From Flaccisagitta enflata (taxonomy: Eukaryota): a stretch of DNA of 64,000 nucleotides. The stretch covers positions 17,236,001 to 17,300,000 of the forward strand of contig OZ231126.1 of assembly GCA_965153355.1 (NCBI GenBank), read 5' to 3'. The notes beneath the pieces are model-generated. The model was given only the letters and a program-made list of their open reading frames with translations. It had not been told where the DNA came from and made no database searches. The position numbers and the translations under genes were made by a program. Below, in pieces: positions 1 to 47,070 of the stretch. Positions within the stretch are counted from its first letter, which is position 1; each line of letters opens with the position of its first letter.

Positions 1-5
1 TGGCG

Positions 6-6953: not shown

Positions 6954-8235
6954 TAACAAGCACAAACGAAGGGACTTAGACAGTGTCACAGAAAAACAGA
7001 CGTGGTAATGATAAGAAACTGAGAATTGAGAAACCTGCGCTTTTTTTTTCATTCTGCTCATAAGAATCACAAACCCCACCAAATCGATAGCGAAATAGAT
7101 TCTACGCTGCGGTGCGCTTATGTGGACGGTCGACAGCAATCAAGAATAAAACGGCTCTACTGTAGTTGAAGAGGTTCTTATTCCTGAGACAAGCAAAATA
7201 TGTACATCTTGTGACGCACATGATAATATTCTTAGTCGCGGGTTTCGCAATTCTACGACTCGCTTTGTACCTCTGTCGGTTCGTCTTTCTGTCAGTGTCC
7301 ATACCCCTTTTAATTTTTTGCCGTTTTTATCGATGCAGAATAACAAACGGACAAAAAAATAATCTCTTTTATATTCCGCATTATCATGCAGGTGCCCTTG
7401 GACGCGGAATTCCTGCAGCCTTTTGTCAAGGCTTTGAATTGAGCTTGGAAGTTGCCGAATAGACGATGGCGCGACTTCAACACCCGCCGACATTCACCAA
7501 CCTCTAATTCAAACTCAATCACACAATCAGGTTTCTTGGGCGTGAAATCTTTCTAAAATTCATAACGTCTTACGGCCTCTGCCATGACCTCATTGCGTTT
7601 AGTCGCTTGAAACTTTCTGGTGAATCTTTAAAATAGCTTATGCCCGTTTCATAAGTCGTAACAAACGTTATCTTGATAGTCGGTTGTGCTGTTATGCTGT
7701 TTTTGGCAAGATTCGAGATTTGCTGGGCCAACTATAAGAAATATGTCCACACCCTGTCACACTGATAATAATCATAATACACTTACACAGAGGGATATTG
7801 CTAACTCTGGAATGATGAAGTGCTATTTCTATGGCGCATGAACTGAAAAAAAAGTACTAAAACACCCATAGATAGATTTTTCTCTATGAATCAATGAAAT
7901 ACTGATGTCTCTAAGTGTGGACATATTTCTCATAGTTGGCCCAGCGACTCTCAAATCATACCTTTCACATTTTCGCTTTCGAACGAAGCAATGCTGGCAA
8001 AAGATGGGAAAAGCAGTAAAGACCGAACAAGGCCAAGTGCCCTGTTTATCGAATTACTTTTATTATTGTGTAGGTGGCATGTTTCCTCAACTTCCTAGGC
8101 TGCGGTGTAAGAGACCCCTCTTGGCGGAATGTTCAATCAACGCTACAATTGGTACATTCAGCGCAACAACAAAGGATGACATGGTTTGAAAGTTCGAAAC
8201 AAACATGACAGACAAGAGACCAAAATTGACTCATA

Positions 8236-10269: not shown

Positions 10270-10930
10270 TGGAATTGATCTGAAAAGACTTCAAAGGGTC
10301 ATTGTCAATCTCATTTGCATATTGCACCTCAATAGTGGCCTAGAAAAAAGACTTCTTGAATGTTCCTTTTTTAAGGCATGGATGGGTCTCTCAAAGATCA
10401 TTTGTCCATAAGCCTAACAATCAAGTCCATCTCTTTATATCTGCAACGCTTAAGAGTCATTCCACTACTGGACCACTACTATATAGGAATTCATTTTGCT
10501 CCTAACAGTCTAAGACAAAAAAAAAGGTAAATAAAACGTTTTTGAAAACCTTAGATAATTATGCTATTTCTAAAAGGGTGTAAATCTTCCCATTAGACAA
10601 CCAATTATACCAGTCTACGCCCTTTACACCCTGGCTTGTTGAATAATGAGATGAATAAGGAGGTAAAGCACCTTTCGTTTGCCCTCCATCTCTTTATTAG
10701 ACATATTATACAGATAAAACAGTGCAAAAGACTGAGAAGGGTCTCTAAATTTCATTTGCATATTGCAGCTCTACAGTGTCCTAAAAAAACTTCCTGAATG
10801 TCATTATTTAAGGGGCATTGATTGGTCTCTAATAGATCTATTAGTACAACCATCAAGTCCATCCCTTGATATCTGCAAGTGAATGCATTATTGGATCACC
10901 AAAAACCAACAAAAACATTCACCTTTGCAA
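10270..10930 (-). repeat. Two diverged units (about 440 bp period) of the octamer-containing repeat, reverse orientation
   Basis: ATTTGCAT at 10313 and 10754, each followed by ATTGCA.CTC.A.AGTG.CCTA.AAAA..CTTC.TGAATG ... ATCAAGTCCATC.CTT.ATATCTGCAA. This is the reverse complement of the units at 13956-18900. Confidence 0.85.
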
Positions 10931-13900
10931 AACTTAAAACATTATGGAAATGACAAACAAGTGTTAGTTCTTCACTTGAGTACAGATACCCTCACAAACT
11001 AATCTATGGCCTTTACACATATTGGCACACGAGCAATCTGGCCGCTTTTAATCGAGTATTAAAAGATAGAGAACCATCTAATTGTCTTCCACCCCCAAAT
11101 CAGCACTCTAGTCCTCAAATCTGCCTTTGGTGACCTAAACCAGTCATCATTGGCCCCTTGAGGATGTCTGAAAATTCACCCCTGTGTCCTACAGGACATC
11201 GGCCCATTGGGTCCCCTGCCCTGCTCTCAATCAACTTCTTCACCTGATCACTCCAAGCAGGGCATCGGGTACCGCTGACCATGTGTGATCCTTGGATGAC
11301 TAGTTTCAACCTATTAACCATGGCCAAAAAAAAAAATGGCACACTCATCTTTAAATGCAAGCTGATTCGCTCTCTTTAGATTAAACTATAGAAAATCAGT
11401 GACCGTTAGAAAGATCTTCGAAAGTTCTTTTAAACTAGACCAAGCAGAATATTGTGAGTTTTTTTGTTTAAAAATGACAACTAAACAGAAGCTGATTAAT
11501 TTTGCTTTTGCCTGAGAAATTCATTCTATCATCAAAATTCTCTTGTTTCTTCTAAGTGCAACGGGTATCAATAAAAATTGAAACGCAGTTCAGAGCAGCT
11601 AGAGACGCAAGCGATTTTTTTCTGGACGTAGACAGTTTCATAGAGCTTCTGCTAAATGTCATGTTCATGGTCTCTTGCTTTATTAGTGTAGTCAAACAAA
11701 CAGTTGAAAGGAAAAGATTCAAAAAGTCATGAATAAAACACATTTAGGGAAGCACAACATTCATGTTTTGTAGACCAAAAGGAAGGTCTTAGTCTCCTCT
11801 TTAATCTAAGACAAAAAACGAGTTGTTTTATGTCTTAGCTTCTTTCAAAACAACCAAAATAAACAATGTCGTTGTTCCCTTTTTTCATGTCTAAATCAGA
11901 CTAAAGAGGGCCACCACTTGTCTTTTTTCTCAGTCTCTTCTCATCTTTCCTGAAAAAAAAGAGCAAAAGGCACTTGAAACCTCTGATCTGCACTTGAAAG
12001 GTCTTGAGAGAGGTCAAAGACTGCAGGGACAGCAGCAGTAGGACCGCAGCAGTAGAACCAGTCTTGTGAGAGGTCAAAAACTGCAGGGACAGCAGAAGTA
12101 GAACCGCAAAGAAAAATTTGCTGTAGTTTGATGCCATCTTGAGTTTTCCCACTAAACTAGGCAATGAAAACAAAAGAACAAAAGACTTTTAAGTATGAGT
12201 GAAGCCTTTTTTCAACTTGCATTTGATTTACTTGGATTGAGTGACATAATTGTTTTTCAATATTTCATCAATGAATCTGACACTTTTAAATTTGAAGTGA
12301 CAAAATTATTCACAAAAAAAAAATTCTGTGATGAACTACATAAGCTATGAAAACATTTGCATTGCCCAGAAATTGCCTAGTTCTCTGAAATTGATTTCAT
12401 TTGTGTCTTGTATAACAAAGGTAATATTGAAGGTAATAAAGAAGTAGCACAAGACCAAATATCTCAATTATCAAACTACTGAAAGTTTGTGTTGCAAAAA
12501 TTGTTTAAGCACATAAAAATATCTCTCATTTATGATGCTAGATGCCAAGCCATTAAGAATTGACATGACTGCAGTATGCAAATGATTTCTTTTTACTTAC
12601 TTTCAAAGTTTGAATCAGACATTCACAGCAGCTTGTATCAATCCTTATTTACATATTGCTGAAAGTTTCTTTTTGAATCTTCAGTGATGTAAAACAGAAA
12701 CAAAAAGGTATTCAAAATGTGAGTTTGGGCTCTGTGCTGTGTGGAAAGAACACTTGACCCAAACTGCATCTATTTCTTTTTTGGTTAAAGAGTTCAATTC
12801 CAATTTTATGATTTTCAACAGCTTGATCTACGCTTGTTTCAACCTGCTATTGTCAAAGGATAAAAGCCCCATCAAAAACTAAATCAAAATACTGCTTCTA
12901 AAGTATGAGTAATCAAGGCCTACAATTCAAATGCAGGTGATTATTATACCATGGAAAAAAAAGTGACACTCCTAGAAATTGATCAAGCCTCCAAATCAGT
13001 AAGACATGTAAGGTATCTACAAAACTATAGTACAAATATATTTGACACTTGTAGCACCTACAGTGACTCATAGCAATGAAAAAAAAAAATCTCAGAAATA
13101 ATTATGAGGGACTGATCAATGACTGTTTAGAAAGAGAGATAATTAGAGTGAGACAGACTGTAACAGCAAAGTGTTAGGTTCTGCCAAATTTTGCGTTACC
13201 TTGATTAAATATGATTTGACCTATTAAACAAGCTTCATGTTTACCATTGTGATGAATAAGGAATTTGCCTGAGGTCACAGATGAAAATGAGAATTACTGC
13301 AGTGAGGAAAAATTTTTTCCTGCTTACATTCAATGACCATATGACATGATCAAATAACCCCGTACTAAGTAAAAAAGACAACCATAGCAGGTTAAAACGC
13401 ATGCAGCAATATGCAAACTAGATTTAGTTCCATTTCTCCAACAACAAAAATCAAAATGATATGAGAATCTCATTAGCATAATGATGTTGTTGTGTATTTC
13501 TGTCACTCTACTTGTTGATGATTTAAAAGAACATACACAAGGCCAAGTAGGGTGCGACATGTGGATCATCAAATGAATGCGCTACCAATCAACCAACCAA
13601 ACGACTGACCACCCGTTGGACACAGCCAGTTTTAGAGGTGCTTTGTTGCACCTGATAATGCAGCTGTGGTGATAGGTCACTCTATCTCATATTGCATAGA
13701 ATGGCTAATATAAACAAGGCCGGATTTATGGCAAGACCGTTGCAGATGGTTGGGCAGGGGCCGTAATGCAAAAACTGCTCGCAGTTCAAAAAAGTTAGTA
13801 GCTTACCAACCTACCAACCTATCAACATGGCGAGGTGTAGAGTCGCGTGTTGGCAACTAAGAACTTAACACATGGTCAACAGGGCAGTCTTTCCTCTATG

Positions 13901-14637
13901 AATTCTCATTTGAAATAAGCAAAATGCTTTATGTACCAGTCACCTTCATTTGTTAGACTGTGAGGAGCAAAATGAAATCAAATATGATAGTGGTCAAATT
14001 ATGGAATAGCTCTGAGGCATCGGAGATTTCAAGATATGGACCTGACTGTTAGCCTGATGGACTAATGATCTACAAAATATCGATTCATGCATCTAAAAAG
14101 AAATGTTGAGGAAGTTTTTTCTGGGATACCATAGAGCTGCAATATGCAAATAAGATTGACAGTGTGCTTTCTCAAGATTTCATTTTGTTTTAGCTGCCAA
14201 GCTAGTTGAAAAAGTGGGTGGAAAACAAGTGGACACTTCTCTATCTCTTAATTTTCAATAACAAATAATCAGACGGCCCATGAGTTACTGAGTGTATAAA
14301 GCATAGATGTTAGGACCTCTTAGAGGAGTGCTAAGTTAAACAAACAGAAATGCCTTGACCTTTTTTTAGGTATTCTTAAGACTGCAAGGAGCAGAATAAG
14401 TTCCAATATCATAGTGGTCAAAGTATGGAATGGCTCTTAGGCATTGCAGATATCAAGAGATGGACTCGACTGTTAGACTGATATACTATTGATCTACTGA
14501 AGGAGGACCTATGCACCTGAAAAAAATGACATTCAGGAAGTTTTTTTATGGTCACTATAGAGCTGCAAAATGCAAATTAGATTGACAGTGTCCCCTCTGA
14601 GCCGTTTGTAATATTTTGGCTTCAAAATACCTTGAAA

Positions 14638-15120
14638 CTAGTTGCCCAAGAATATGTGGTCAGCGATACCCGTTGCCCTGCTTTGCATAGTTGTGAATCA
14701 GAATAAAAGGAATTAGGGCAGCGGCCCCAAAGGGGACAAAGTCCACTGCAGAACACAGGTGACCTTTGTTTGTTTCTCCGTCCGTAATCCATTCCCAAGG
14801 CCCTGTCCGGCTCTCTCAGGCTCTCTCAGGCCTGAAATCTACACTCACAGTCCTGACTCTGAGAGGGCAGGTTTGAGGCCTGAGAGAGCATATTTCAGGC
14901 CTGATAGGGCAGATTCAAGGTCCTAGAGGGCAAATTTCAGGCCTGAGAGGGCAGATTTTAGGATTGAGAAGGCAGATTTCAGGCCTGAGCAGGCAGATTT
15001 CAGGCCTGAAAGGGCTGATCTCAGGCCTGAGAGGGCCTGGGGGAGACAAACAAATGGACAAACAAACTAAAGTTCCTCTGTGTTCTACAGGACTTCATCC
15101 CCTTTTTGGGCCGCTGCCCA
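14638..15120 (-). mobile_element. GGGCAGCGGCCCC-family element inserted in an array unit
   Basis: 21-bp AGGCCTGAGAGGGCAGATTTC repeats and family ends; the flanks rejoin to the unit consensus TTGAAAAAAGGGGT.GAA. Confidence 0.75.
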
Positions 15121-15990
15121 AAAAGGGGTAGAAGACAATTGAATGAATCTCTCTCTCTTGATTCTCATTTATATTTTGCCAGATCACTAGCAAGTCAATG
15201 GTTAAATGAGGGAAGAACTGAGATAACCTTTATGTCTTAATCATGCGTGGTTCTATGTTATTTTTTGGGTCCCTGTAAAACTGTTAGGAGCAAAATGAAT
15301 TTCATTATGAAAAAGATCCAAATATGAAATAACTCTTAGACATTGCTGAAGTCAAGTGATGAACCTATGTATTGGACTATTAGACCACTGATCTACTAAA
15401 GAGCAATCAATGCCCCTGAAAATAAGACATTCAGGAAGTTTTTATTAGGTCACTAGAGTGCAGCAATATAAAAATAAGATCGACAGTAAGTCCTACTGGA
15501 ATCTTTTCTCATACTGTTTCAGCTGTACAAAGGTTAAAATAAAGAGTGGAAGCATAAATGAATAGATTATCTATGTGTCAGCTTGCATTGTTAACCAACC
15601 AGATTACTCTTTGGAGTTCTGACTTGCAGAGTCAATGAGTATGCATTACCAATTCAAAGGTTGGGCCATGAAATAAATAATTTTATATGCCTCAGCCCCC
15701 TCAAGTTCATTAGATTTTTTCAGTGGTTTGTAAGACTGTAAGGACAAAATCACCTATGAGAAAGCAGTGGTCAGTTATGGAATGGCTCTGAGGTATTGCA
15801 AATATCAAGAACTGGACTTGACTGCAAGACTGATGGACTAATGATCTACAAAACGCCGATTCATGCACCTGAAAAAAAGTAATATTCAGAAAGTTTGTTC
15901 TAGGTCACTATAGAGCTGCAATATGCAAACAAGATTGACAGTGTCCCCTCTCAGTGTTTCATACTGATTTGGCTGCAAAATTGGTTGAAA

Positions 15991-16163
15991 CAAGGCCGGA
16001 TACACAGCTACCGTGCGGGTGGGCAGGGGCCACATTTGAGGTCTAGGGACCATCTTGTATAGGCAGAGGTCAAAGAAATGAAATCATAAAAAAAAGTAAA
16101 ATTGCGACCAACCGACCGACTGACAGATGGACAAAGGTGGTTGTAGAGTCACTGGCACGTGAC
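15991..16163 (-). mobile_element. HINE element inserted in an array unit
   Basis: CAAGGCCGGATACAC ... GTAGAGTC..GCACGTGAC ends; the flanks rejoin to the unit consensus. Confidence 0.75.
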
Positions 16164-18120
16164 AAAAAAAGGGGTGGAAAACAAGAGGAAGGTTCTCTGT
16201 CTCTTAATCATCCCTAACAACTGGTCAGATGGCTCATCAGTCAATGGGTGAAAAAGGCATAGACTGGTTCGTAAGGAAATCTGAAGAGAACACGTGACAC
16301 AGGTTCACAAGTTCATTGCGAATGGGTGGGCAGGGGCATCCAACCCCAACGCCCCACTTCATACACACAAGATGTATCCAAAACGCTCAACTTTCCATTT
16401 TTCTACTCAATCACCTCTACAGACAAACCAATGGAAAAAACGGACAGTCAAAGCGTTTTATAGAGTTGCGTGTCTGCAAATATAAACTGAGTTGAGTTAA
16501 TAATTTTTCAAAAATGCAATTATTTTTCACGTTAGCTGATGTGAAAAATTTTTTAAGTGTTTATCTGACAGTAAGGAGCAAAATGAATTTCAAAATGATA
16601 GTGCTCAAATTATGCAATGGCTCTTAGGCATTGCAGATATCAAGAAATGGACTTGACTGTTAGACTGATGAACTAATTAACGACTAAAGGCCGATCTATG
16701 CACCTGAAAATATGTCATTTAGGAACTTTTTTTATGGTCACTGTAGGACTGCAATATGCAAATGAGATTGACAGTGTCCCTTCTCAGTCTTTCATACTGT
16801 TAAAGCTGTGTGATAGGTTGAAAAAAGGGGTGGAAGACAAAAGCATGGTCCTCCATCTCTTATTGCGCACTAATAACTCATAAGTCAATGATTCATTTGG
16901 GGAAGAAAAGAGATGAGACACATGTTATTACTGATGCAGTAAGCACCGATAGATGGCTTTTGTCTCTAGATTATTCACAAAATAGCCTCTAAATACAAAA
17001 TGGTCCAACATACAGGACTCTAGGCATGCTATAAAATTCATGGCTGATTTTTGGACCAATGATCTAAGTTAGAGATAATTTATACCCTGAAAGAAAATGA
17101 GATTCAGGATACTTACAGATTACTATAGAACTGCAATATGCAAATGAGATTGACAGTGTCCCTACCCAATATTTATACTGTTTTAGCTGCATGAACCATT
17201 AAAAAGAAAAGAAGACAGCTTATAGGTCTTCATCTGTTAGTTTTGTTAAAAGCCAACCAGATTGCCCTTGACTCGTGAGTCGTATATGTGGTGGAACTTC
17301 CTGAATAATTGGGGAGATCACAGTCAGCCATCATCTTTTCTGTTCATGCCCCCAAGTGATTTGTGGGATTTTCAGGGTCTTTGTCTGACTGTAAGAGCAA
17401 ACCAAGTCATAAAACATAGTGGTCGGCATGGATTTGGCCTAGGGCCTTTGCAGATATTAAGAAAGTTTCTGATTACACTGCTAGACTGATGGACTAATGA
17501 TCTACAAAATAGCTGATTCACCTTCAAAAAAACATATCTGTGAAGTTTGGTCTGACGTGAATGAAAAGGCAATATGCAACAGATTGGTACCTTCTCAGTG
17601 TTCCATACTGATTTGGCTTCAACATTGGTTGAAAAGAAAGGGGGGGAACAAGTGGAAGGTTCTCTATCTCTCAATTCTCACTAACAACTGATCAGATGGC
17701 TCGTGAGTCCAATAGTTGTGGAGGGCATAGACTGGTTTGTCAGGGGACCTGAAGAGAGGAACTGAATTAAATTCACACTTTTTCAGAAACGCAAAGATTA
17801 GTTATTAGGTTATCTAAGTCAGCCTAACACCCTTTGAGAAGTAACACAGTTTTTTAAGATTTGTTGAAAAGAAGTGTTTTTTTGGTCTTTTTAGACTGTT
17901 AAGAGCAAAATGAATTCCAATATGATAGAGGTCCAATTACAGAATGACTCTTAAGCGTTGCAGATATCAAGAGATGGACTTGATTGTTAGACTTATGGAC
18001 CGATGATCTACTAGAGACCAATCAATGCCTTAAAAAAAAAAGGGTATTCAGGGAGTTTTTTTCTAGGTCACTGTAGTGCTGCAATATGCAAATGAGATTG
18101 ACAGTGCTCCTTCTAAGCCT

Positions 18121-18749
18121 TTTTTTGGCAGCGGCTCCGAAGGGGACGAAGTCCTGTAGAACACAGGGGGACTTTCGTTCGTCCGTTTGTTTGTTCATTC
18201 GTTCGTCCCCCCCCCCCTCATCAGGCCCCTCAGGCCTCAAATTTGGCCTCTGAGACCTCAAATCTGGCCTCTCAGGCCTCAAATCCGGCCTCCCAGGCCT
18301 CAAATCCAACCTCTCAGGCCTCACCTTGGGCCTCTCAGGCCTCAAATTAGGCTTCCCCTGCCTCAAACCGTACCCCTCGGGCCTCAAATTAGGCCTCTCA
18401 GGCCCTTAATCAGCTATCTAAGCCTCAATTTACTGCTCTCAGGCTTCAAATCAGTCCTCTGACCTTTCAAGCCTTAATCCAGCTCTCTCATGCCTCAAGT
18501 CAGCCCTCTAAAGCTTCCGATTGGCCTCATTTCAGCCTTCTCAGGCCTCAGTTTAGGCTCTTGGAGACCTTCAGTAAGCCCTCCATAGCATTTTATCCAC
18601 TTCTTCAGGCAGGACAAACGAAAGTGACCCTGTGATCTACAGGACTTCGTCTTCGGGGCCGCTGCCCTGCTTCCCTCACTCCAATTCACAATCACTCAAA
18701 GCAGGGCAACGGGTATCGCTGACCACATATTGCCCTTGGGCGACCTGTT
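18121..18749 (+). mobile_element. GGGCAGCGGCCCC-family element with 21-bp repeats
   Basis: GGCAGCGGCTCCGAAGGGGACGAAGTCCTGTAG start, CTCTCAGGCCTCAAAT repeats and CAGGGCAACGGGTATCGCTGACC end. Confidence 0.75.
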
Positions 18750-19911
18750 ACTATTTTAGCTGCATAAAATGTCGGGAAAATGGGTGGAAGACATATGGAC
18801 GGTTCTCTGTCTGTCAGTTCTCATTCAAAAATGGCAAGGTTGCCCATGAATGGGTCAAAAGGGTTCTGACAGGTTTGTGGCGATGTCTAAAGGGAAGGGC
18901 AAAGATATTGTTAAGGATATAAGATTAGGTTGCAGTGAGCCCCAATAATTGAGACAAAGAACAACCAATGCAGCCAAGTATCATTTTGCTCTGGCATATT
19001 TCCTCTTCAAAAATACTTTTTATATCACAGTGAAAGAAACTTTTAAACCTACATCACAAAAGATATCTTTTGACATGAACAAAATATGGATCAAATCTAT
19101 AGTTCATGGATTTCATTCTGAAGCATTTTTGAAGTAATAAGAAAAAAAAATTGATTAAAATCATAAACAAGAGAGGTTTAATTGCACTCTACAATATGCA
19201 AATGATATTGAATCTGGCCTGAAGAAAGTCAAAATGTTAGCAAATGAAAATATCTTGTTCTCCTCTTACAAAAATGGCCGTGATTTGGATTTGGCAAAAA
19301 TTTTAGTCAATAGATGCAGAACTCTGAAGGCAGAATCTTTTTGATGATGTTTATCAATCAATCAATCAAACATTTTTGGTTTTAGAAAGCAAGTTTTTGT
19401 CAAGAGGAAGATTGGCTACACCTTTAAAAACCCATGAAATCATTTGCATAATGCAGATATTGTTTTCTCCTGATCAAAATCCTCAGCCACGTTGCATGTA
19501 TGAATTTATTGTATTCTATCATAAATCTTGACTCTTGAAGATGTCCAGTTCTCAAGTATCTTTCTGTTTCATGTCTTGTTCTGGTGGGAGGACACTGTCT
19601 GTCAACAAATCTCACTCATTCAAAAGGAATGTTTATGACCTTCCACTTCAACATTTGTTATCATTGTATAGGTTTTTTGAGGGGACAGGAATAAGGGGCT
19701 TATCTTTTATTAAAATGTCAAAGGATTAACATTGAAAACAAATTCTCAGATTAGTTATCTTTTGAGGAGTTTCAGTTCAGACATTCAAAAGGCATAAAAG
19801 ATGCAATTAAGCCTAGGTTTTGAGAGTTGATTTCAAGGTTAGGATTTAGTCCCATGGGAGGGGTGAATTTAGAAATAGGGATGATTAAGGAAATAGCCGC
19901 AAAAGCATTAG

Positions 19912-20482
19912 ATGGTCAGCGGTACCTGTGCCCTGCCTATGTACAGTAGATGTCGTCTAGACTTGGAAATATGGGGGAATTCATTACAGGAAGATGAATA
20001 AACTTAAGAGAATGTTATTTGGAATATAGATTAATTAAAGGATACTTTATTGCCCATGGGTGTTGGTTCTCCTCCGTCCCTCCCCTCAAATCCCAGTCTC
20101 GAGGCCCAAATTCCAGTCTCGAGGCCCAAATCCCAGTCTTGAGGCCCACATCCCAGCCTCAAGGCCCAAATCCTAGCCTCAAGGCCCAAATCCTAGCCTG
20201 GAGGCTGAGATTTGGGCCTCAAGGCGTGGATCTTGGCCTCTTGGCTGAGATTTTGACATTGAGGCTGAGATTTGGGCCTCAAGACTGAAATCTGGGCCTC
20301 CAGGCTAGGATTTAGGCCTTGAGGCTAGGATTTGGGCTGAGGCTGGGATGTGGGCCTCAAGACTGGGATTTGGGCCTGAGAATGGAATTGGGCTTCAAGA
20401 CTGGGATTTGAGGGGAGGATGTAGGAGGAGAAGGAAAATCCCCATATGTGTGAAAGCATAGGTCATCGACATGGGCTGCCCA
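19912..20482 (-). mobile_element. Element with about 20-bp GAGGCCCAAATCCCAG repeats (family of 3833-4330)
   Basis: Internal repeats in both orientations and the shared motif TGTGTGAAAGCATAGGTCATCGA. A further copy lies at about 55795-56232. Confidence 0.65.
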
Positions 20483-20530
20483 AAGGATAAGAGACAGAGT
20501 GTGACAGAGTGTGACTGTCCTTTTCTCTCT

Positions 20531-25458
<4,928 letters not shown>

Positions 25459-25489
25459 GGATGAAAAGGCTGGACACACCGCTACCCCA

Positions 25490-25950
25490 GTCATATGCCC
25501 TATCCCCTACCTTCAGACACACCCCTGGACTCACCCCTACCTTTTGACTCACCCCTAACCCTAGACTAGCCCCTACCTCTAACTTCCCCCTGCTGCCTAC
25601 TCCACTCCTACCTCTTACCCCACTCCTACCCTTGACTCGACCCCCACCACGGACCTTTGACCCCATACTCAACCTCCACCCCTTACCCCTAGCTCGCCCA
25701 ATCCTATCCCTAACTCCACCTCTACCCCTTACTCCACCCCTAACTCAACCCCTACCCTAACTCCACCCCTATCCCTAACTCCCCCCACCCCAAACTCAAC
25801 TCCTATCCCTAGTCCCACCCCTTCCCTTAACTCCACCCCTTACTCAACCCCTACCCAAGAACTCAACCCTGCACCGAAATCTACTCCTTATCCCAACCCC
25901 TTTCCCACAAGCCCTAAACTGTACACCTTTACCATCATTCTCAACCCCTA
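25490..25950. repeat. Degenerate C-rich repeat (CCCTAACTCCACC-like)
   Basis: Many CCC tracts at 6- and 12-bp periodicity. Confidence 0.8.
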
Positions 25951-28900
25951 GACCTAATTAAATTTCCATTCTTAAACATTACTTGCAATTCTAAACCCTT
26001 GCTATGCATTTAAGCTCTACTTACTTTCCTAAGACTATATTTTCTTTGAAAAGAAAGAAATGGTATTTATAACAATCTTTACCTCTTCTACCCTCCCCTG
26101 CAAAATTTTTCCTTGGTTTCATGTTATTGAAGATGAAAGTTTGAAACTTTTTTCAATGAGTGAGATTGATTGACAGATAGTTTCTTGCTTCCAATTTAAG
26201 AGGCAGATAAAAAAGGTTTAAGCGATTAATATATTATCAAGAGTCATGATTAATCATTGATAAGAAAAAAAGTCAACTGCAAAATATGGATCAATACATT
26301 GATCAGGCCAAGTCAGTTTCTGCAATATGCAAATGATTTCATCAAACTTTGAAGATGCAGCCAATCACTTTTTTGCCTTTAATCATAAACCAACATGGCC
26401 ACAGACACAGTCGCCCAATTGCGGATGGGTGGTCAGGGGCAGTATAGCAAAAAACACATTTTAAAAAAGATACAAATAGACAATTGGACTGATGGACCTA
26501 CACAGCAAGTTTGCAACTGAAGATATTGGATTTATGAATACACAATATTGTTTTGTTAGGAAAAATTTTGACTTTCTAAAGGTTAAGGAGATTGAATCAG
26601 TGTCAATCTCATTTGCATATTGTAGTAGATTAGCTATCCTCTCTTGAAGTAAGATGTTCTTTGCTGTTGACTACAAAAATATTGTTTTTTGAAACCCATG
26701 AACTGACAAGTTGATTTATATTGTTCATCTTTCTTTTTTTTTTCATGTCAGAGGATACTTCTCATTATGTAGTTTCAATCATTTCATCCTCTGATGTGTA
26801 AATAGTAAAATCATATCACCTAAAGGATCTATGTCTATAATTGTTTTTAATTGAGTGTTGGTAACCTGAAGAAAAACTTGGGAACTTTTACTTAAAACAC
26901 AAGTAGGTTTTTGATTCATTGATGATTTGCTCTTTGAACCAGAACTGCTGCTTTAAACGATTTCTGAAGTGGGTTTGCCTGACCTATGGGCCATTACAAT
27001 AGATATCTTTCATGACCTTAGAGCTTTTATATCAATTGACCAGTGTCATATTAGCATTGCTCACATCCTCAAAAATGGATGAAATGTAAATACAGCCTTT
27101 TAAATAAAGCTTTTTCCAAGCAACTTGAGTCCTAATTAGCATATTGTTACGCTATCCAGATCCAGCCTGTTGTGCATTAGAACTCATGAACCAACTAGTT
27201 CTCCTCTAGTCTCTCCTGTCAACCATGGTGCCTGCATTGATAACACTGAATGAGGAGAGACCATTAATCTCATTAGCATATTGCAGCTCTCTTAGTACCT
27301 GATAAGTAGCCATCCCAATGTCAGTTTTAGAGGCAGGTTATTTCATCTCGTTTAGGGAACTAGTCCACTAGTCCAACAATTGATGCAAAAACAATTAGTG
27401 CACAATGTTCTTGAAGCAACTAGATCAGTTGACAGCAACTGTAGTAGCATCCATTTCACTCCTTACTGTTTGATTATGTTTTAAAAAAATATTATAACTA
27501 TAAGATCTTACACAACAAAAAAAGATGAACTTTGCATAGTCAATCAATGAATTTCTCTCCTGGGATACCTCTTTACCGCTAGTATGGTCAACTACTATCT
27601 AGAACATAAGTATATCGACAGTATGGGGATTGGTTAATTTAGCAGTGTAGGAAACCTAGAAAAACCGCCAAAACATGTCAGATACTTAATACTACGTCTT
27701 TGGGTTTCAACACATATTTGTATGTGGATTTTCTAAGCACTTTAACACAAATGCTTTGTATAAATGCATGATAACTCTCCCTCATAAAATCTTATTTAAA
27801 AAATTCCTTAGTGTATGCCATGTTCTCCCTTTTGCTTTAGTTGCAATCCCAATGACTCAGAGAGGTTGAAATCAACCAAGATAATGAAGCAAAGGTGTTG
27901 GGCGCTGTAATTAGGACCAAAAATAGGGTGGAAAAAACCTCTAATCTATCTGAAAGGAGACTTAGTAACTAGTAAAGAATTTAGATGCATTTTTTTGGCC
28001 ATTTTCTAATTGAAGTATCAATCTTGTTTTGCCTGTCAATTCTAAACATCTTAAGCTAAAAGGATGCGGTTTGCGGCATTTGGTCAGAAATTCGAAATAG
28101 TTTCAGAATCTCACTGATTTTTATATAAATTTCTTATTCTTAACAGAGTTATTGCTTAAAATGCCTGTCAATATACATATGTTCTAGATAGTATTTGGAT
28201 AATCCTTTGACCGAGTAAGCATGATTATATAAGATTTATGGAATGGAATCAACCAGTCGTTCCTCAGTCATGTGTTCAGAGTAGAGGGACCGATTAATTC
28301 ATTAGCATATTGCAGCTCTATGTTAGCCTGTCAAATGGCCTCCTGTTGTCATTTTGATAGGTTTGTTGAATCAACCCATGGTGATCATTGGCCCATTTGT
28401 CTAATAACTAACTCAGTCTTTTCAATTATGCAATGTCCTTGGAGCAAGAATATAATTTTACGACTATCATGAGAGCATCTATTTGACTTCCTTAGGATTG
28501 GTTAAATCCCTTAATTCACAAGGTGTAATAGTGAGTTCAGTTATGCTAAAGTAAAGGAGCTGTGTAGCTGCTTCTTGCTTTTGTTCATTCAGTACATTGC
28601 AATGAAATCTGGCTGCAGTTGAACATGTCAAATATTGAAAAGGGATATACAAAATGATTTTAAGTGAGTTCAAATCCATGGTGTCCCAGTTAAAGATCTT
28701 TCCATTTATACTCTGATTGTTTTAAGTCTGATATGCTTTTTTTTGAAAAATAAACTGTCAAATGTATTTGCATTTTTTCAAAATGAATGGCCAACACAAT
28801 TGAGCTTGTCTTTAAAGATGAACATTCATCTTTAAATTTGTTTAACCACACTTGTAATATCTCTTTGTAAATATCAGTCACCTTAACCCTGAATCAAAAT

Positions 28901-31156
28901 GATATCCACACTGTATTTACAAGGAGAAAAAATCTTTATTTTACCAAGATTTCAACCATGAAATTTGATGCTACAATATGCAAATGAGATGGTACATTGT
29001 TGAAGAGAAAACAAAAAAGAGTAGTGATGTTCTGACTTCATTTGCATAAAGCAGTTACTTTCATTGAGATTGGTAGCTTACTGTTTCCATATCCATGGCA
29101 CTAAGTTTTTGCCCTCAATGCTGCTGGCAGCCAAAATTGTCAATTTTTGAAATGACAAATATGATATCTTTACATGTGGGCTACATTAAAATGTTTAAGT
29201 AAAAGGGTATACATTTAGCCAAATGGTTGTGACTAAAATATGTATATCAAAAGCACAAAATCAAATATCGGATTGACTTATTAACAGAGGAATAAGTCAA
29301 TAAATATAATAGTTAAATATGGCCTGTTGCATTTGCATGAACAAAAGGATTTAATCTTTCCTCTCATCCACCACAATTTTCATCCCATTTTGTCTATTTC
29401 AAGCAGCTATAGTACAGTGCTTTTCTTTTTTGCTTTTTCTTATTTGCATATTGCTGTTTTTTTATTTGCAAGCCCTCTTTGTTGCCGTTTCATGTTTTTT
29501 GTTCCAAGTTTGTATTAATCAAATGGCAATAATTCAAATCATTCCTCTAAGATGGTAGGCACAATATGCATGTTAACAGCATAGATTCAAATTTGGTTCA
29601 ATTATAAAATCTTTCATGGTTTAAGCAACTGGGTTAGATTAACTCTTGGTGCATATACTCAATCAGCCATGAATATATGATTTGTTTATTTATTCTTAAA
29701 AGTTAGTGTTTAAGAACATTTCTGTTGAGGATGATCTGCGCACCTCCTTATTTGCATATTGCTGTTGGCCCATTTTAAAGCTGTTATAGCTGAATTAGAG
29801 TCAATCTTTTCTATCTTGTCAATCAGAAAACATGAGATTACAATACATGAAATACTAAAGCAAAAAAAAATCTGAAAAATCTCAAGGCTAAGAGTAAAAT
29901 CTGGTTTGTGAAGTAGAGATCCTTGATTAAAAAATTGATGGCTTTGTTTCCAATCAAACTTTTTTGATCAAATTTCATCATTGACAAGTTTCGCTTATAT
30001 CTTTACATAATACAATTTTAGCCCACCACAAAAATACATTAGCAAAAGTAAGAAAATTGGGAATCCGGGATGCAATATGTTCATCACAACCAAGGTTTGC
30101 TTTGTTTGTCTGAAGGCAACATGGATGACTTAGAGGGGCTTGCCTTAACTGTTTTTGAATGTGAAATGACCTTGCTTAGCTTGACATGGACTGGGGCTTG
30201 GCTTGGATCAGGAAGGATTGGCTTTGCTTGACTTGGTTTGGCTTGGCTTGGCTTTGCTTGGCTAAGTTAGATTGCATTGAGGAAGTGTCTTTGATTCAGA
30301 GGGTATTACTTGTTACATGTTTAGGACATGTAAGATGAATCTTTTGACTACCAAGCTCTAGGCCTCCTCTCCTTTGTAAAAAAGCTGCAGCAAGAAAACA
30401 AAAGACAATTTAGTTTTCTTCAAAAACACTGGTGCAGCACTGACTAGGGAAACTACCCTTTTGTCCCGGGCTCTGTAGAAATTTTTCACCAGGAATTTGT
30501 TTATTTTGATTTTCTTTGCAATGGTGCATGATAAAATTAAAATTCTTTCACCAAACTGTTAGCTATGTTACCCGCTATCTTTTGTTATTTCATTGTTTTT
30601 TCCTAGGTGCCCTAACAAAAAAGCTAACCTATCAAAAACTGTCTCCAATTTTTATTCGAACACCCGTTACGATTGGGCGAACGAGACAACCGAAGGATGG
30701 ATCAGTGACGACCTACTGATGTTCAAGTTCAGGTGGGCGACTTGATGTTCAAGTAGGTGGGTGGGTCGCTCGATAGCATATCTTCTCCACGACGCGATCT
30801 CGAGGATTTTCTCTTTACTTCTTCATCTCTCATTTCTATCATGTTTTTGACATCTCTTAACCTTCATAACAGGAGGAACCATATCCCTCACCATACCCAA
30901 ACTGAAATTAATGGAAGAGGGCCCCGCGAGCCCCTAACCGACCAGTCATCACGCGTATCACTCCTAGTTTTCCATAAAACAGAAACTTAATAACATTCTT
31001 TCTCAATCTGACCCAAAAGAAAACTGCTTCCCAAAAGCAGTTAAAGGCAGATATACGAGATGAAGTGATGGATAAATGGACAAATTGACTGAGGGGTCGG
31101 AAAACAATGACAGGGGACGGCGGGCCTATGAATGATGGATTCATTGAGAAAAAAAA

Positions 31157-32807: not shown

Positions 32808-34039
32808 AACATCGAGGGCATTTGGAAAATCTGATGCGGTGTTCATGCTTAAAAATTGCTTATCCAGCAGATGTTGATAATGCAACATAATGAAATCCAT
32901 TGGCGAATCGTCATCGCAAGCACCGGTAGTTGTACTAGAACAATCACATGTAATTACATTATGGAGGATGCAGTTCAAATGCAGAACAGAATTTTGCCTG
33001 TTCTGCATTTGCATTTGTACAGTATCCTCCATAATGAAACAAGAGATTGTTGTAATGGAATCCACATTTCTTGTCAGCCCATAAAGCTGAGATTTCAACT
33101 GTAGATACCCGAAGGCAATGGAACACTTTACCTAAGATTTCATCTAAATTATATTAGCCAGCTAGAAGTATGCCTATCATTACATCCCGTATAACGCCCC
33201 TGAAGTCGTCCAGTGTTTAATTATCAAGAACTGTGCGACAGGATATGTAAACAGCAAGTTTCAACGGAACAACATGAAACAATCAATGGATGAATTATTT
33301 ATATCAATTAAGAAAGGCAACTGCAGTCATCAAATAATCATGTTTGAGAAACAATTACCCATTCAGGGCATGAGCGAGAGGGTGCTCCATAATCTCGCAG
33401 TTCCAACATCACAGACTGAGACGAAAGTGTCAGGGCCGTTGAACTGAATCGTCAAGCGTTAATCAAAAACAGAATATTTCTAAAAGAAAAGAAAAAATTT
33501 CCAATGCCAAGACCACGGCGCGTCAATCGGAAAGCGATAATTTTCTATCCTCTTTAATGTATGTAAAAATAGAAAAAAGTAATGGATTATCGTGAATCGC
33601 GATAAGCCATTCACTACCACTCTCCTTCGTTGGTTTAATTTGTCTTGCCTTTTTACTGATACTCCAAAAGGGTTTTTGTTTCTGCCTTTTTCCCTACAGC
33701 TATACATGGTTATCATGTCACATTCAGTTGACATGACATAAAATTATACAGCAAGAGCCAATAAGCGCATCAACAGGAGAACAGCTTATGAAACCGATAT
33801 GTTTCTTTCTGTGATAGTCGCGAAATTTTGAAATCCAATTTAGCTGCAAATCCTATCATCCTATCATCCTTGACTGTTCAATAACATTGCACATGTGGAA
33901 GTGATAATGATGGAAAAGAGTATTAACATGGGAATCACATATGGTTGTTTTTAATAATATAAAAACGGAAATTGTCGAAACCGTTGGACGTTTCGTCTTA
34001 CAGGCGTGACAGCTCATCGTATCATCCTATCATCCCAGC

Positions 34040-34135
<96 letters not shown>

Positions 34136-35124
34136 ATTCTCCTCTAAATCTCTATCTGCATCATCATCTCTGTCTGCCTGGCTACGGTGGCCTACTGTCT
34201 GTCTTTATTTACTCCCCCCCTCTTCTTTTGAGAAAGAAAAAACACATTTTCTAATGAGTGTCCACATATGACGGCGAGCATCCGACGGAAAGATTTAGCG
34301 TGTCAACAGGGGTCAAAATAGAAAATTTTATGAGAATTAAAATAAGAAATAACATAAAAAAAATTATTGAGATATATCATAGTAAATATTCTATTGCAAA
34401 ATTTGCATTCATATAGGACAAAAGAGCAAGTAAAGCTATTATCAACTAAATAATTTTGCTAGAAAATACTTAAAATTTAATATTTGTTCACTGATAAGAG
34501 GCTTGTCAAAATTATAACTTTGCATAGAAAATGAAAAAACACAAAAATGAAGAATATAGCCGCCTTCCAAAATTGATTACAGAGGCGGCTATGTTTTTGA
34601 AAATGCAAAATTTCCTTGCATTCTAGAGTCTTATAATTTTGACAGCAGCAGTGAGACAAAAAATGTAAGCAAAATTTCATTAAAAATCTTTGTTTTCTTT
34701 GCTTTTCTCATGCGAATTGCTGATTTAAAGATTCTTTTGAGGTCAGCATATGACAAAGACATAAACACAGAGTATTTTTGGAGACAATTTGTTTCATAAA
34801 AATATCTGTTGCATCATGATCTTTCAATTATTGTAGAAAAGATGGGGTGAGACACTGAATGTTGACAGCAAATGCTCGCCGTCATATGGCTTTTTTATCA
34901 CAAAGAAAAGCATTTCTGTCCAATATTGTGCAGACATCCTTTAGCTGTAAGATTGGAAAGGCAGTTTTACAACTCGTTTTAAAGGCAACAAGAAAGAGCC
35001 AAATGCCTTTTCCATTCTTCCAGCTAATATTGTCCTGTCAATGTTTAACGAAAATTCCGGTATTTGTGATAAAACAACCATATGTGGACTCCCATAGAGA
35101 AATATCTTTTTTCTCCTCTCTTGT

Positions 35125-37280: not shown

Positions 37281-37317
<37 letters not shown>

Positions 37318-37321
<4 letters not shown>

Positions 37322-37572
37322 TCGAATGATTGTCGCCTCATGCTCAGCATCAACATCATCATAGAACCGAGTCATAAAGGAAGATGATAGCCTGCTATAA
37401 CGCGCGTAGCTTAATTTGTAGATTGTCTATTTTTTATGTTTCTTTCTTGCAATTTATCAAATGGAATGGGATGCCTCTCTCTTCTTCGCTCACTGTTCGG
37501 TAAATAGTAGTAATCATGTATTCATGTATAGAAGCGTCTCGGCATCATGAAATCATATCAACAATGTCAACC
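37318..37572 (+). repeat. Local duplication, copy 1 (copy 2 at about 41901-42154)
   Basis: Near-identical 255-bp unique sequence. Confidence 0.92.
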
Positions 37573-39492: not shown

Positions 39493-40129
39493 TAGTACCT
39501 TCCGAGCACACTCGGCTAAAACTGGAGGATTAATTTTTTTTAATTTTTTTTTTATTTCCTTATCTTTGTTTTTTTTTTATATAACTTAATTAAAGGATAC
39601 TTAATTCCTTGAACATATTTGGCTGTTAAAAAAAATAACTCCTGAAACCAAAGTCTTTGAATACATCATTTTGAGTGTTTTAACTCAGATTTGGCAGAAG
39701 TGTTTTAACTCAGATTTGGCAGAAAATATTACTTATCCTAGACAACATGAACAGCTCAATCAGATAATTTTTACAGGTTCTACAGCTTTTATAAGTTTTT
39801 AAGGACAATTGTCTTAAAATAATTTAGGACAATTGTCTTTAAAAACTTCAAATGGCCATAAAATCTAAAATAATTATCTGATTGAACTGTTCTTATTATC
39901 TAGGATAGGTAAAATTTTCTGCTGAATCCAATGGTCTAGGTTAAAACACTCCAAATTGATGACTTCATGCACTTTGATTTCACATGTTTTTTTTTTGACA
40001 GCAAGATATGTTCAAGGAATTAGGTATCTTTTAATTAAGTTGGATACAAAAAATGAAATTTTGGAAATAAGATTAAAATAAAAAAAATTTTATCCTCCAG
40101 TTTTAGCCGGGTTTGTTTGGAAGGTACTG
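39493..40129. mobile_element. Fully palindromic Tc1/mariner-type MITE
   Basis: AGTACCTTCC.A.CA.AC.CGGCTAAAACTGGAGGAT ... ATCCTCCAGTTTTAGCCG..TGGAAGGTACTG. The arms pair through to a centre near 39810-39840. Confidence 0.8.
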
Positions 40130-41900: not shown

Positions 41901-42255
41901 GAGTGTCGAATGATTGTCGCCTCATGCTCAGCATCAACATCATCATAGAACCGAGTCATAAAGGAAGATGATAGCCTGCTATAACGCGCGTAGCTTAATT
42001 TGTAGATTGTCTATTTTTTATGTTTCTTTCTTGCAATTTATCAAATGGAATGGGATGCCTCTCTCTACTTCGCTCACTGTTCGGTAAATAGTAGTACATG
42101 TATTCATGTATAGAAGCGTCTCGGCATCATGAAATCATATCAACAATGTCAACCTGTCTACGAATATTCACAACAGATTACATCCAGTCAATATCACATT
42201 GGCGTCTGTCATTCGGCGTGCGTAATGAGTAGAGAGAAATACGGCTCCCAGCAAC

Positions 42256-46920: not shown

Positions 46921-47070
46921 CATCAACTTTGGAAGACTCTTGCTCCTTAACGAATCAAGCTACAAATATCAATTTGGGCTCATTTTAAAGAGCTGTGTAT
47001 GCTCTTTAAAATGAGCTCAAGTTGAGGTTATTTCGTCAGTTCGTTAAGGAGATATGAGCCGTCGAAGTTT
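46921..47070. repeat. Imperfect palindrome, probable MITE core
   Basis: CTCCTTAACGAA..GCTCATTTTAAAGAGC / GCTCTTTAAAATGAGC..TTCGTTAAGGAG. Confidence 0.7.

What the first reader, a model, noticed from the sequence alone, without database searches (positions are those of the whole stretch)
17894..28460. Old multi-kilobase palindrome centred near 23 kb, with arms of different ages
Seen: collinear inverted matches at 20842/25395 (near-identical), about 19805/25958 (AATTAAGCCTAGGTTTTGAGA versus TCTCAACCCCTAGACCTAATT), 19430-19625/26150-26340 (CAAATCTCACTCATT versus AATGAGTGAGATTG, plus the octamer) and 19010-19210/26600-26800. Plus-strand array units are mirrored by degenerate minus-strand units at about 27180-27470 and 28270-28450. 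The inner arms are far more similar than the outer arms. Inference: either an ancient inverted duplication with later arm-to-arm conversion at the centre, or a giant foldback element. It could yield long hairpin RNA.
Basis: partly seen in the sequence, partly recalled or inferred. Interest (0 to 1): 0.7.

Follow-up and report, generated by a model that had tools for sequence, protein, structure and literature searches.

The report
Nested old-and-young inverted duplication in satellite DNA
A gene-free, repeat-rich stretch of a marine eukaryote's genome holds a real mirror-image duplication with an old outer layer and a younger inner layer, most likely a by-product of DNA folding back on itself during copying rather than a working gene.

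Summary
After masking satellites, the only inverted matches across the centre are three sets. First, a (TC)n + 185-bp core + 10-bp satellite module at 20780-21198 / 25038-25456 (88.8% over 429 columns; core K2P 0.074). Second, a unique pair P 19014-19651 / P' 26127-26807 (K2P 0.37, z 36.6 against shuffles). Third, ~464-bp satellite units: 11 of 11 are plus-strand at 13.9-18.9 kb and 4 of 4 minus-strand at 26.6-28.5 kb. The 0.7-0.9 kb between core and P shows no homology. A third partial core copy (22564-22692) and opposed 10-bp arrays meeting at 22779/80 show further local fold-back events. The window gave no Pfam domain, no Rfam family and no tRNA. There is no target-site duplication. PolyA RNA gave only 8 partial reads out of 12.16 million records read. 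No genome was available, so copy number and assembly could not be checked directly. My best reading (0.55) is a locus-specific palindrome whose centre was re-made or converted later by fold-back replication, and which is now decaying neutrally. The main rival (0.2) is that the inner module is a foldback-type transposon. This is a known kind of structure, of modest interest. A strictly conserved octamer-bearing box is confined to 10.3-29.8 kb and is the most curious by-product.

The parts
13950..18909 (+). Left outer arm: head-to-tail array of ~464-bp units, each ending in a conserved box that contains ATGCAAAT. It is interrupted by small 20/21-bp-subrepeat hairpin elements at 14860-15134 and 18110-18509.
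   Evidence: 11 of 11 profile hits here are on the plus strand. The units are aligned. K2P among them is 0.20-0.26.
19014..19651 (+). Block P, the old unique left partner. It holds two boxes in opposite orientation, at 19192 (+) and 19440 (-).
   Evidence: Inverted alignment to 26807-26127: E 5e-26, z 36.6 and K2P 0.366. Boxes located.
19652..20523 (.). Left gap segment with no detectable partner on the right. It contains a 366-bp perfect-hairpin element of 20-bp subrepeats at 20067-20432.
   Evidence: Alignment score 17.5 against shuffles 15.2 +/- 2.2. The hairpin folds at -174 kcal/mol, z -25.8.
20524..20845 (+). (TC)161 microsatellite at the outer end of the young left arm.
   Evidence: TRF. 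It is mirrored by (AG)33 at 25391-25456.
20846..21030 (+). Core L: a 185-bp non-repetitive domain with an exact (TTAGGG)x3 run at 20944-20961, flanked by a degenerate fourth unit.
   Evidence: 89% identical to 25390-25198 and 87% to 22692-22564. There are no other copies in the 64 kb. Alignment.
21031..22555 (+). 10-bp satellite (TCTTCATGTC)n in plus orientation. Its higher-order periods are 20, 29-30, 49 and 79 bp. It is split by a 207-bp spacer found only in this arm (21183-21389).
   Evidence: TRF. The first 168 bp pair with 25197-25038 at K2P 0.110. The spacer is unique in the window.
22564..22692 (-). Core M: a third, partial core copy (core positions 33-161). It sits in reverse orientation inside the plus-strand 10-bp array.
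   Evidence: K2P is 0.145 to L and 0.100 to R.
22696..23216 (.). Orientation switch of the 10-bp satellite: plus at 22696-22778 and minus at 22781-23216, only 2 bp apart. 22786-23203 is a specific inverted copy of 21971-22389.
   Evidence: TRF. The inverted copy is 79.6% over 431 columns, E 3e-101. The hairpin fold has z -6.7.
23217..24767 (.). Unpaired 1.55-kb middle segment. It carries a very high-copy ~160-bp interspersed element (24049-24209) and a (CTGT/CT)n tract (24250-24407).
   Evidence: No inverted partner. Its flanks show no significant inverted repeat: 9 of 300 shuffles reach the observed score. No Pfam hit in its 2 ORFs.
24768..25198 (-). 10-bp satellite in minus orientation, belonging to the young right arm.
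   Evidence: TRF. Pairing shown.
25198..25390 (-). Core R with (CCCTAA)5 on the plus strand, head-to-head with the TTAGGG run of core L.
25391..25456 (-). (AG)33, the mirror of the (TC)n tract.
25457..26126 (.). Right gap segment with no partner on the left. It contains a C-rich, telomere-like 18-bp minisatellite at 25523-25856.
26127..26807 (-). Block P', the old unique right partner. Its boxes at 26609 (-) and 26323 (+) mirror those of P.
27000..28488 (-). Right outer arm: decayed minus-strand units at 27000-27059, 27252-27507 and 28279-28488. They are interrupted by an interspersed repeat at about 27572-28348. Box traces continue to 29761.
   Evidence: K2P is 0.35-0.55 to the left units and 0.40 between the two right units. 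Boxes. High read depth at 27572-28348.
10284..11095 (-). Two minus-strand units at the far left. They mark a separate, younger orientation switch between 11.1 and 13.9 kb.
   Evidence: K2P to the unit at 17590-18122 is 0.14-0.17.

Best explanation
This is a real, locus-specific, nested inverted duplication in gene-free, satellite-rich DNA of a marine eukaryote.

Old layer (shown): block P and the box-bearing ~464-bp satellite units on the left are mirrored by P' and minus-strand units on the right, at K2P about 0.37-0.5.

Young layer (shown): a module of (TC)n, a 185-bp core with TTAGGG repeats and a 10-bp satellite is mirrored at K2P about 0.07-0.11. Further small inverted copies lie inside it. 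These are core M and a 420-bp array segment that is 79.6% identical to its partner.

Mechanism (inferred): opposed satellite arrays form hairpins. After a break or a stalled fork near the centre, the strand folds back and primes on itself. This re-copies the inner part of one arm, which is equivalent to arm-to-arm conversion. The same locus has therefore been re-palindromised several times. The older outer parts meanwhile decay and collect insertions.

Function (inferred): none. It is a neutral structural by-product.
For: - With satellites masked, the only inverted matches across the centre are core L/R, core L/M, P/P' and the units.
- P/P' is a one-to-one pair: E 5e-26, z 36.6 and direct-orientation score 17 against 93.
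- The P/P' mirror centre (22910) lies 207 bp from the core centre (23118). By my arithmetic, a lone inverted partner falls that close in 64 kb about 0.6% of the time.
- Unit orientation is 11 of 11 plus at 13.9-18.9 kb and 4 of 4 minus at 26.6-28.5 kb, with none in the other 44 kb.
- The order units - P - gap - (TC)n - core - 10-mer is the same in both arms.
- The distinct K2P classes point to at least three events: 0.07-0.15, 0.14-0.17 (far-left units) and 0.35-0.55.
- The centre folds as a hairpin (z -6.7).
- At least 8 further self-palindromes lie in the window, so this genome is palindrome-prone.
- A contig joining 21737 and 22158 on opposite strands is present in two runs, X1 and X3. Inverted junctions in this satellite therefore occur in independent samples.
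- Arms that differ by 7-40% cannot be a fold-back read or a collapse artefact.
- All 30 bins of 20838-28600 are covered by contigs in X1 and X3.
- The fold-back mechanism with a single-copy spacer is described in the abstract of PMC3907307.
Against: - No genome was held, so I could not show that core, P and the units are single-locus. The read depths have no single-copy calibrator.
- The listed contig pieces were at most about 500 bp and none spans an arm boundary.
- With a 92% threshold and 93% core identity, contigs from one arm may lie on the other. The runs therefore do not prove both core variants separately.
- 0.7-0.9 kb between core and P has no homology.
- The mirror centres of the pairs differ: 21785, 22587, 22910 and 23118.
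- The inner module has the modular shape of foldback transposons.
- The flanks of the 1.55-kb middle segment show no significant short inverted repeat.
- A simple inversion inside an ancestral array, rather than a duplication, could explain the units, though not P/P'.
Confidence: 0.55

Rival explanations
1. The inner part (about 20.5-25.5 kb) is a foldback-type transposon. Its long terminal inverted repeats are made of a terminal domain (core) plus tandem 10-bp subrepeats, and it has a non-coding middle domain. It happens to sit within an older inverted satellite array.
For: - The shape matches the description of Tetris and FB elements: a flanking domain, tandem-repeat domains and a middle domain without coding capacity (PMC4079207, sections 10 and 17).
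- The two arms have unequal array lengths and internal rearranged copies.
- The 10-bp satellite also occurs at 44105-44289 and has 10- to 50-fold higher depth than the cores.
- Small hairpin elements made of 20-bp subrepeats are common in the window.
Against: - There is no direct repeat of 6 nt or more at either candidate pair of ends.
- (TC)n and (AG)n are inverted, not direct, so they are not target sequence.
- The core has only 3 copies, all local, and no match in the metagenome contig collection.
- The core bins are among the lowest-depth bins in both DNA runs, and the lowest in X3.
- An insertion exactly at the symmetry centre of an older palindrome would be a coincidence.
Confidence: 0.2
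2. The locus has a function. It is either a hairpin-RNA or small-RNA source, or a protein-bound element with two-fold symmetry (centromere-like or origin-like) built on the box-bearing satellite.
For: - The L x R RNA duplex potential is large: -704 kcal/mol against -170 +/- 12 for shuffles.
- The 14-nt box is kept at 54 of 56 positions in the four oldest copies, although overall identity is about 61-71%. The corrected p is about 6e-4.
- 25 of 25 hits with at least 12 of 14 matches lie within 10311-29761.
- Metatranscriptome contigs cover 27 of 30 bins at low depth.
Against: - PolyA RNA of organism A gave 8 partial reads out of 12.16 million records read, about 6% of the run. The 4 of 30 bins with any polyA-RNA depth are 21615-21873, 23428-23686, 23946-24204 and 26536-26794, with the highest depth in the bin holding the interspersed element.
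- The metatranscriptome signal may be carried-over DNA.
- The arms decay at near-saturating rates outside the box.
- No gene in the window is similar to the arms.
- There is no Rfam family above its gathering score.
Confidence: 0.08
3. There is no shared duplication history. The pattern is a chance arrangement of dispersed repeats in both orientations.
For: The window is full of interspersed repeats and satellites.
Against: - Core, P and the units have no copies outside this locus in the 64 kb.
- The order and orientation agree in both arms.
- The mirror position of P' is matched within about 0.4 kb.
Confidence: 0.05
4. The palindrome is an assembly misjoin. Two real but separate loci that share paralogous sequence were joined inside the 10-bp satellite or a microsatellite.
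For: - The junction at 22779/80 lies inside a satellite.
- No contig or read spanning the arms could be examined.
- The long (TC)161 tract prevented laying reads on the left outer arm.
Against: - The arms are diverged, so there is no read-level fold-back artefact.
- Three independent pairs (core, P, units) are symmetric about nearly the same centre.
- The same pieces occur in runs of several studies: 20 of the 24 listed runs hold part of the stretch, from 9 studies.
Confidence: 0.05

Closest known systems
Fold-back (hairpin-primed) inverted duplications, as described for human constitutional rearrangements (PMC3907307, abstract read) and yeast (PMC10622511, search listing only)
   Same: Two inverted copies flank an unpaired single-copy spacer. 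Short inverted sequences are available to prime the fold-back; here they are opposed 10-bp arrays.
   Different: Here the event is ancient and repeated, giving three divergence classes. It lies in non-coding satellite DNA. No terminal deletion or dicentric history can be seen. No significant short inverted repeat was found at the borders of the 1.55-kb spacer.
Foldback transposons (Drosophila FB; Tetris of D. virilis, PMC4079207, sections 10 and 17 read; Galileo, PMC3573991, search listing only)
   Same: Long inverted arms built from a terminal non-repetitive domain plus tandem subrepeats, a non-coding middle domain, unequal arms and rearranged copies.
   Different: No target-site duplication. 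No dispersed copies were found. The flanks beyond the module are themselves inverted (P/P' and the units), which a simple insertion does not produce.
Large sex-chromosome palindromes kept alike by arm-to-arm gene conversion (10.1101/800185, PMC8600007, PMC8327919: search listings with the start of each abstract)
   Same: Inverted arms around a unique spacer, with a possible role of intrachromosomal conversion in keeping the inner arms more alike.
   Different: Those are longer than 10 kb, more than 99% identical and carry genes. Here the arms are 59-93% identical, shorter, interrupted and gene-free.
Hairpin-RNA (hpRNA) loci of Drosophila (PMC10317233, PMC10292708: search listings with the start of each abstract)
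   Same: An inverted repeat that could fold into a long double-stranded RNA if transcribed through.
   Different: No transcript was seen in polyA RNA. The arms are not similar to any gene. Small RNAs could not be tested.

Membership tests
Foldback-type transposon | Long terminal inverted repeats made of a terminal domain plus tandem subrepeats | tested here: met
   Core + 10-bp arrays at 20846-22778 against 24768-25390. The feature is as described in PMC4079207, section 10.
Foldback-type transposon | Target-site duplication of about 8-10 bp at the two ends | tested here: not met
   No direct repeat of 6 nt or more within 25 nt outside 20846/25390 or 20524/25456.
Foldback-type transposon | Multiple dispersed copies in the genome | tested here: inconclusive
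   There are 3 copies, all within 4.5 kb, in the 64-kb window. There were 0 matches in metagenome contigs. The core bins are among the lowest-depth bins. No genome was held.
Foldback-type transposon | Middle domain of variable content, often non-coding | tested here: met
   23217-24767: its 2 ORFs of 75 aa or more have no Pfam family.
Gene-conversion-maintained large palindrome | Arms longer than 10 kb and more than 99% identical | tested here: not met
   Inner arms are 89-93% identical and outer arms 59-71%. The criterion comes from the abstract of 10.1101/800185.
Gene-conversion-maintained large palindrome | Direct evidence of conversion: arms share derived changes relative to an outgroup | not testable with these tools
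   No orthologous locus or second genome was available.
Fold-back inverted duplication | Inverted copies flanking a single-copy spacer | tested here: met
   The arms are as listed above. The spacer 23217-24767 has no inverted partner.
Fold-back inverted duplication | Short inverted sequences at the spacer/duplication boundary | tested here: inconclusive
   Opposed 10-bp arrays give a hairpin at 22690-22870 (z -6.7). The flanks of 23217-24767 show no significant inverted repeat: 9 of 300 shuffles reach the score.
hpRNA / small-RNA locus | Transcription through both arms | tested here: inconclusive
   8 partial reads out of 12.16 million polyA RNA records, about 6% of run X24. Metatranscriptome contigs cover 27 of 30 bins, but DNA carry-over is possible.
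hpRNA / small-RNA locus | 21-24-nt small RNAs from the arms and a target gene similar to the arms | not testable with these tools
   No small-RNA run was offered. No coding similarity was found in the window.

The most novel reading that the evidence does not exclude
The 19.5-kb domain at 10.3-29.8 kb is a chromosomal element with two-fold symmetry, held together by a strictly conserved, octamer-bearing box (CAATATGCAAATGA). The box survives in units that have otherwise decayed to about 60-70% identity. The locus keeps re-forming its palindrome around a centre that carries head-to-head TTAGGG/CCCTAA runs and a telomere-like minisatellite. This would fit a protein-bound structure (centromere-like, an origin or a boundary), or the relic of an ancient sister-chromatid or chromosome-end fusion in subtelomeric satellite DNA.
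Probability: 0.08. Interest if true: 0.6.

Novelty: new member of a known kind. Interest (0 to 1): 0.28.

Why it matters
The locus shows, in a single place, at least three rounds of inverted duplication of clearly different ages around nearly the same centre. It is therefore a natural example of how satellite arrays that can form hairpins keep producing palindromes. It also warns annotators that such nested structures can be real rather than assembly errors. On present evidence it has no function, so its value is descriptive. The box confined to this domain is the one feature that could lead to something testable, namely a DNA-binding protein and its satellite.

Tried and rejected
- Whole-genome search of the core: no genome is held for this window.
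- Earlier findings of this scan by place, by sequence and by relatives: nothing.
- Pfam on 112 of the 223 stop-to-stop ORFs of 75 aa or more. The 111 with residue entropy below 3.6 bits were dropped as low-complexity. No family reached its curated cut-off. The weak hits were low-complexity matches.
- Rfam at gathering scores: 0 matches.
- Rfam at E up to 1 on 9.5-29.5 kb: 25 sub-threshold matches. 23 are miRNA-precursor models, nearly all sitting on the two hairpins at 20121-20378 and 22690-22844, and 2 are snoRNA models. I read these as generic stem matches.
- tRNA scan: 0.
- Metagenome-contig scans with a core pattern and with a box pattern: 0 loci each.
- Homology of the segments between core and P: at chance level.
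- Inverted or direct repeats at the borders of the middle segment: not significant.
- Target-site duplications: none.
- Protein Atlas on the 484-aa edge ORF, to place the organism: recognition was low, the best score was 0.85, and no conclusion was drawn.
- Literature search for the satellite and box strings: 0 papers in the searched library.
- Read depths as copy numbers: rejected, because no single-copy stretch was laid for calibration.
- Metatranscriptome coverage (X10) as evidence of transcription: not used, because DNA carry-over cannot be excluded.

Full report
**Setting**

The 64-kb window looks like eukaryotic non-coding DNA.
- Tandem Repeats Finder lists 146 rows of micro- and minisatellites. 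GC content is 32-48%.
- There are no tRNAs and no Rfam family at gathering score.
- None of 112 ORFs of 75 aa or more reaches a Pfam cut-off. These 112 were kept from 223 after dropping 111 low-complexity ones.
- No whole genome is held for the window.
- Public runs place the DNA in a coded 'organism A' and in marine metagenomes. 20 of the 24 listed runs hold part of 18900-27000, from 9 studies, and the best share of words is 0.49.

**Checking the observation**

The strong inner match is 20780-21198 against 25456-25038, at 88.8% over 429 columns, E 3e-158. Reading inward, it consists of a (TC)n/(AG)n microsatellite, a 185-bp non-repetitive core that contains (TTAGGG)4-5, and the start of a 10-bp satellite (TCTTCATGTC)n.

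When all satellites are masked, only four kinds of inverted match link the left side to 22-30 kb:
- core L / core R;
- core L / a third partial core, M, at 22564-22692;
- the pair P/P' (19014-19651 against 26807-26127);
- many-to-many matches of a ~464-bp tandem unit.

P/P' is 58.7% identical over 707 columns with E 5e-26, and E 3e-23 in a whole-window search. Its score is 93 against 15.7 +/- 2.1 in 200 block shuffles, and 17 in direct orientation.

The anchor at 19805 pairs with 25939, not 25958, at 17 of 21. It is not above chance. The whole segment 19652-20523 against the reverse complement of 25457-26126 scores 17.5, while shuffles give 15.2 +/- 2.2.

The mirrored minus-strand units are real.
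- A single-sequence nhmmer search gives E 3.9e-5 (27256-27471) and E 1.4e-7 (28282-28487).
- An iterated profile finds 17 hits in the window, all at 10.3-18.9 kb or 26.6-28.5 kb.
- Of these, 11 are plus-strand hits at 13.9-18.9 kb, 2 are minus at 10.3-11.1 kb and 4 are minus at 26.6-28.5 kb.
- The profile E-values are inflated, because the hits were part of the profile.

**Anatomy**

Moving towards the centre, both arms have the same order: units, P, a gap segment, microsatellite, core, 10-bp satellite.
- The gap segments differ. The left one holds a 366-bp perfect hairpin of 20-bp subrepeats (-174 kcal/mol, z -25.8). The right one holds a C-rich, telomere-like 18-bp minisatellite.
- The left 10-bp array is 1.7 kb and is split by a 207-bp spacer with no other copy in the window. 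The right array is 0.43 kb.
- Core M sits in reverse orientation inside the left array.
- At 22778/22781 the array flips orientation with only 2 bp between the two runs.
- 22786-23203 is a specific inverted copy of 21971-22389 (79.6%, E 3e-101). The background similarity between satellite stretches is 70-73%.
- A 1.55-kb unpaired middle segment (23217-24767) follows. It carries a very high-copy ~160-bp interspersed element.
- The mirror centres of the pairs are 21785 (L/M), 22587 (array pair), 22910 (P/P') and 23118 (L/R). The symmetry is therefore approximate and nested, not a single clean palindrome.

**Ages**

Kimura distances:

| Pair | K2P |
|---|---|
| core L-R | 0.074 |
| core R-M | 0.100 |
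| first satellite stretch L-R | 0.110 |
| core L-M | 0.145 |
| far-left minus units vs the unit at 17590 | 0.14-0.17 |
| left plus units among themselves | 0.20-0.26 |
| P-P' | 0.366 |
| right minus units vs left units | 0.35-0.55 |
| the two right units vs each other | 0.40 |

- P-P' and the right-versus-left units are of similar age. That fits one old event which put P' and the minus units on the right.
- The inner module is 3-5 times younger.
- The change is a step at the microsatellite, not a gradient.
- Because the three core copies differ by 7-15%, any homogenisation ended long ago.

**Is it an artefact or chance?**

- Arms that differ by 7-40% cannot come from a fold-back read or a collapsed duplicate.
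- Core, P and the units have no copies elsewhere in the 64 kb.
- The mirror position of P' agrees with that of the cores to within 207 bp of centre. By my arithmetic this has a chance of about 0.6% for a lone inverted partner in 64 kb.
- Contigs of two DNA runs cover all 30 bins of 20838-28600. A contig that joins 21737 and 22158 on opposite strands is present in both X1 and X3. Inverted junctions in this satellite therefore exist in independent samples.

Limits of the read evidence:
- The listed pieces are about 500 bp or less and none spans an arm boundary.
- At the 92% threshold, contigs from one core could lie on the other.
- Depths could not be calibrated.
- A misjoin of two paralogous loci inside a satellite therefore remains possible, but I consider it unlikely.

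**What it is not, as far as tested**

- It has no target-site duplication at either candidate pair of ends.
- The borders of the middle segment show no inverted repeat.
- The core and box patterns have no match in the metagenome contig collection.
- PolyA RNA of organism A gave 8 partly fitting reads out of 12.16 million records, about 6% of the run. The highest depth is in the bin holding the interspersed element.
- A metatranscriptome run has low-depth contigs over 27 of 30 bins, but DNA carry-over cannot be excluded.
- The potential for double-stranded RNA is real in principle: -704 kcal/mol for L x R against -170 +/- 12 for shuffles.

**Explanation**

I commit to a locus-specific palindrome that has been re-made several times (0.55).
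- The opposed satellite arrays fold (z -6.7 at the flip).
- A break or stalled fork near the centre lets the strand prime on itself and re-copy the inner part of one arm.
- This is the fold-back mechanism described for inverted duplications with a single-copy spacer (PMC3907307, abstract). In outcome it is equivalent to arm-to-arm conversion.
- The anatomy and the age classes are shown. The mechanism and the absence of function are inferred.

The main rival (0.2) is that the inner module is a foldback transposon.
- Its shape matches the description of Tetris and FB elements: a terminal domain, tandem-repeat domains and a non-coding middle (PMC4079207, sections 10 and 17).
- However, the defining target-site duplication was tested and not found, and dispersed copies were not found.
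- I therefore do not file it as a member of that family.

It is also not a sex-chromosome-type palindrome. Those have arms longer than 10 kb and more than 99% identical (abstract of 10.1101/800185).

**By-product**

- The 3' end of every unit carries a box containing the octamer ATGCAAAT.
- The 14-mer CAATATGCAAATGA has 25 hits with at least 12 of 14 matches. All lie within 10311-29761 and none in the other 44 kb. Hits with 11 of 14 are at the level of shuffles.
- In the four oldest copies (P, P' and the two right units) 54 of 56 positions are kept, although overall identity is 61-71%. The binomial probability, corrected for 460 positions, is about 6e-4.
- P holds two opposed boxes, and P' mirrors them.
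- The TTAGGG run of core L and the CCCTAA run of core R face each other.
- These features feed the boldest reading, a protein-bound symmetric element or a relic of a chromosome-end fusion. I rate that reading at about 0.08.

**Verdict**

The structure is a new example of a known kind, and its interest is modest.

Noticed in passing
window 20067-20432; related copies at about 3919-4229, 4948-5253, 14860-15134, 18110-18509, 55916-56207: A family of small elements made of 20-21-bp subrepeats in opposed arrays. The copy at 20067-20432 folds into an almost perfect ~180-bp stem (-174 kcal/mol, z -25.8) and has no target-site duplication of 6 nt or more.
   Followed up: partly
window 10311-29761: The 14-nt box CAATATGCAAATGA, which contains the octamer ATGCAAAT, has 25 hits with at least 12 of 14 matches. 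All lie in this 19.5-kb domain and none in the other 44 kb. The box is kept almost intact in units that have otherwise decayed to 61-71% identity.
   Followed up: partly
window 24049-24209: A ~160-bp interspersed element with sharp ends (loose ends at 24048 and 24209/10). It has at least 10 copies in the window and by far the highest summed contig depth: 2.4 million in X1 and 139,626 in X3.
   Followed up: partly
window 39494-40128; also 7705-7962, 32936-33054, 34883-35084, 46919-47076, 49047-49251, 61780-61950: Further self-complementary stretches. The largest is 75% over 656 columns, E 3e-124. Small palindromes are therefore frequent in this genome.
   Followed up: no
window 37317-37572 and 41901-42154: A 256-bp direct repeat, 98.8% identical, with copies 4.3 kb apart. 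It may be the two ends of a young long-terminal-repeat-type element. No Pfam domain was found in the ORFs between the copies.
   Followed up: no
window 10284-11095 versus 17590-18122: Two minus-strand units at the far left are closer to the unit at 17590 (K2P 0.14-0.17) than the plus units are to each other. There is thus a second, younger orientation switch between 11.1 and 13.9 kb.
   Followed up: partly
window 20944-20961, 25267-25296 and 25523-25856: Short interstitial TTAGGG and CCCTAA runs face each other across the centre. A telomere-like 18-bp C-rich minisatellite lies next to the right core.
   Followed up: partly
window 3-1454 (+): A 484-aa open frame runs off the window start. It is low-complexity with hydrophobic stretches and lies in the most GC-rich part of the window. 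Its only Pfam hit is a sub-threshold MARVEL match, and the Protein Atlas gave no usable result. It may be an exon of a membrane protein.
   Followed up: partly
window 27572-28348: An interspersed repeat that interrupts the right-arm units. Its depth is 96,000-167,000 in X1. A related copy lies at 42948-43133.
   Followed up: no
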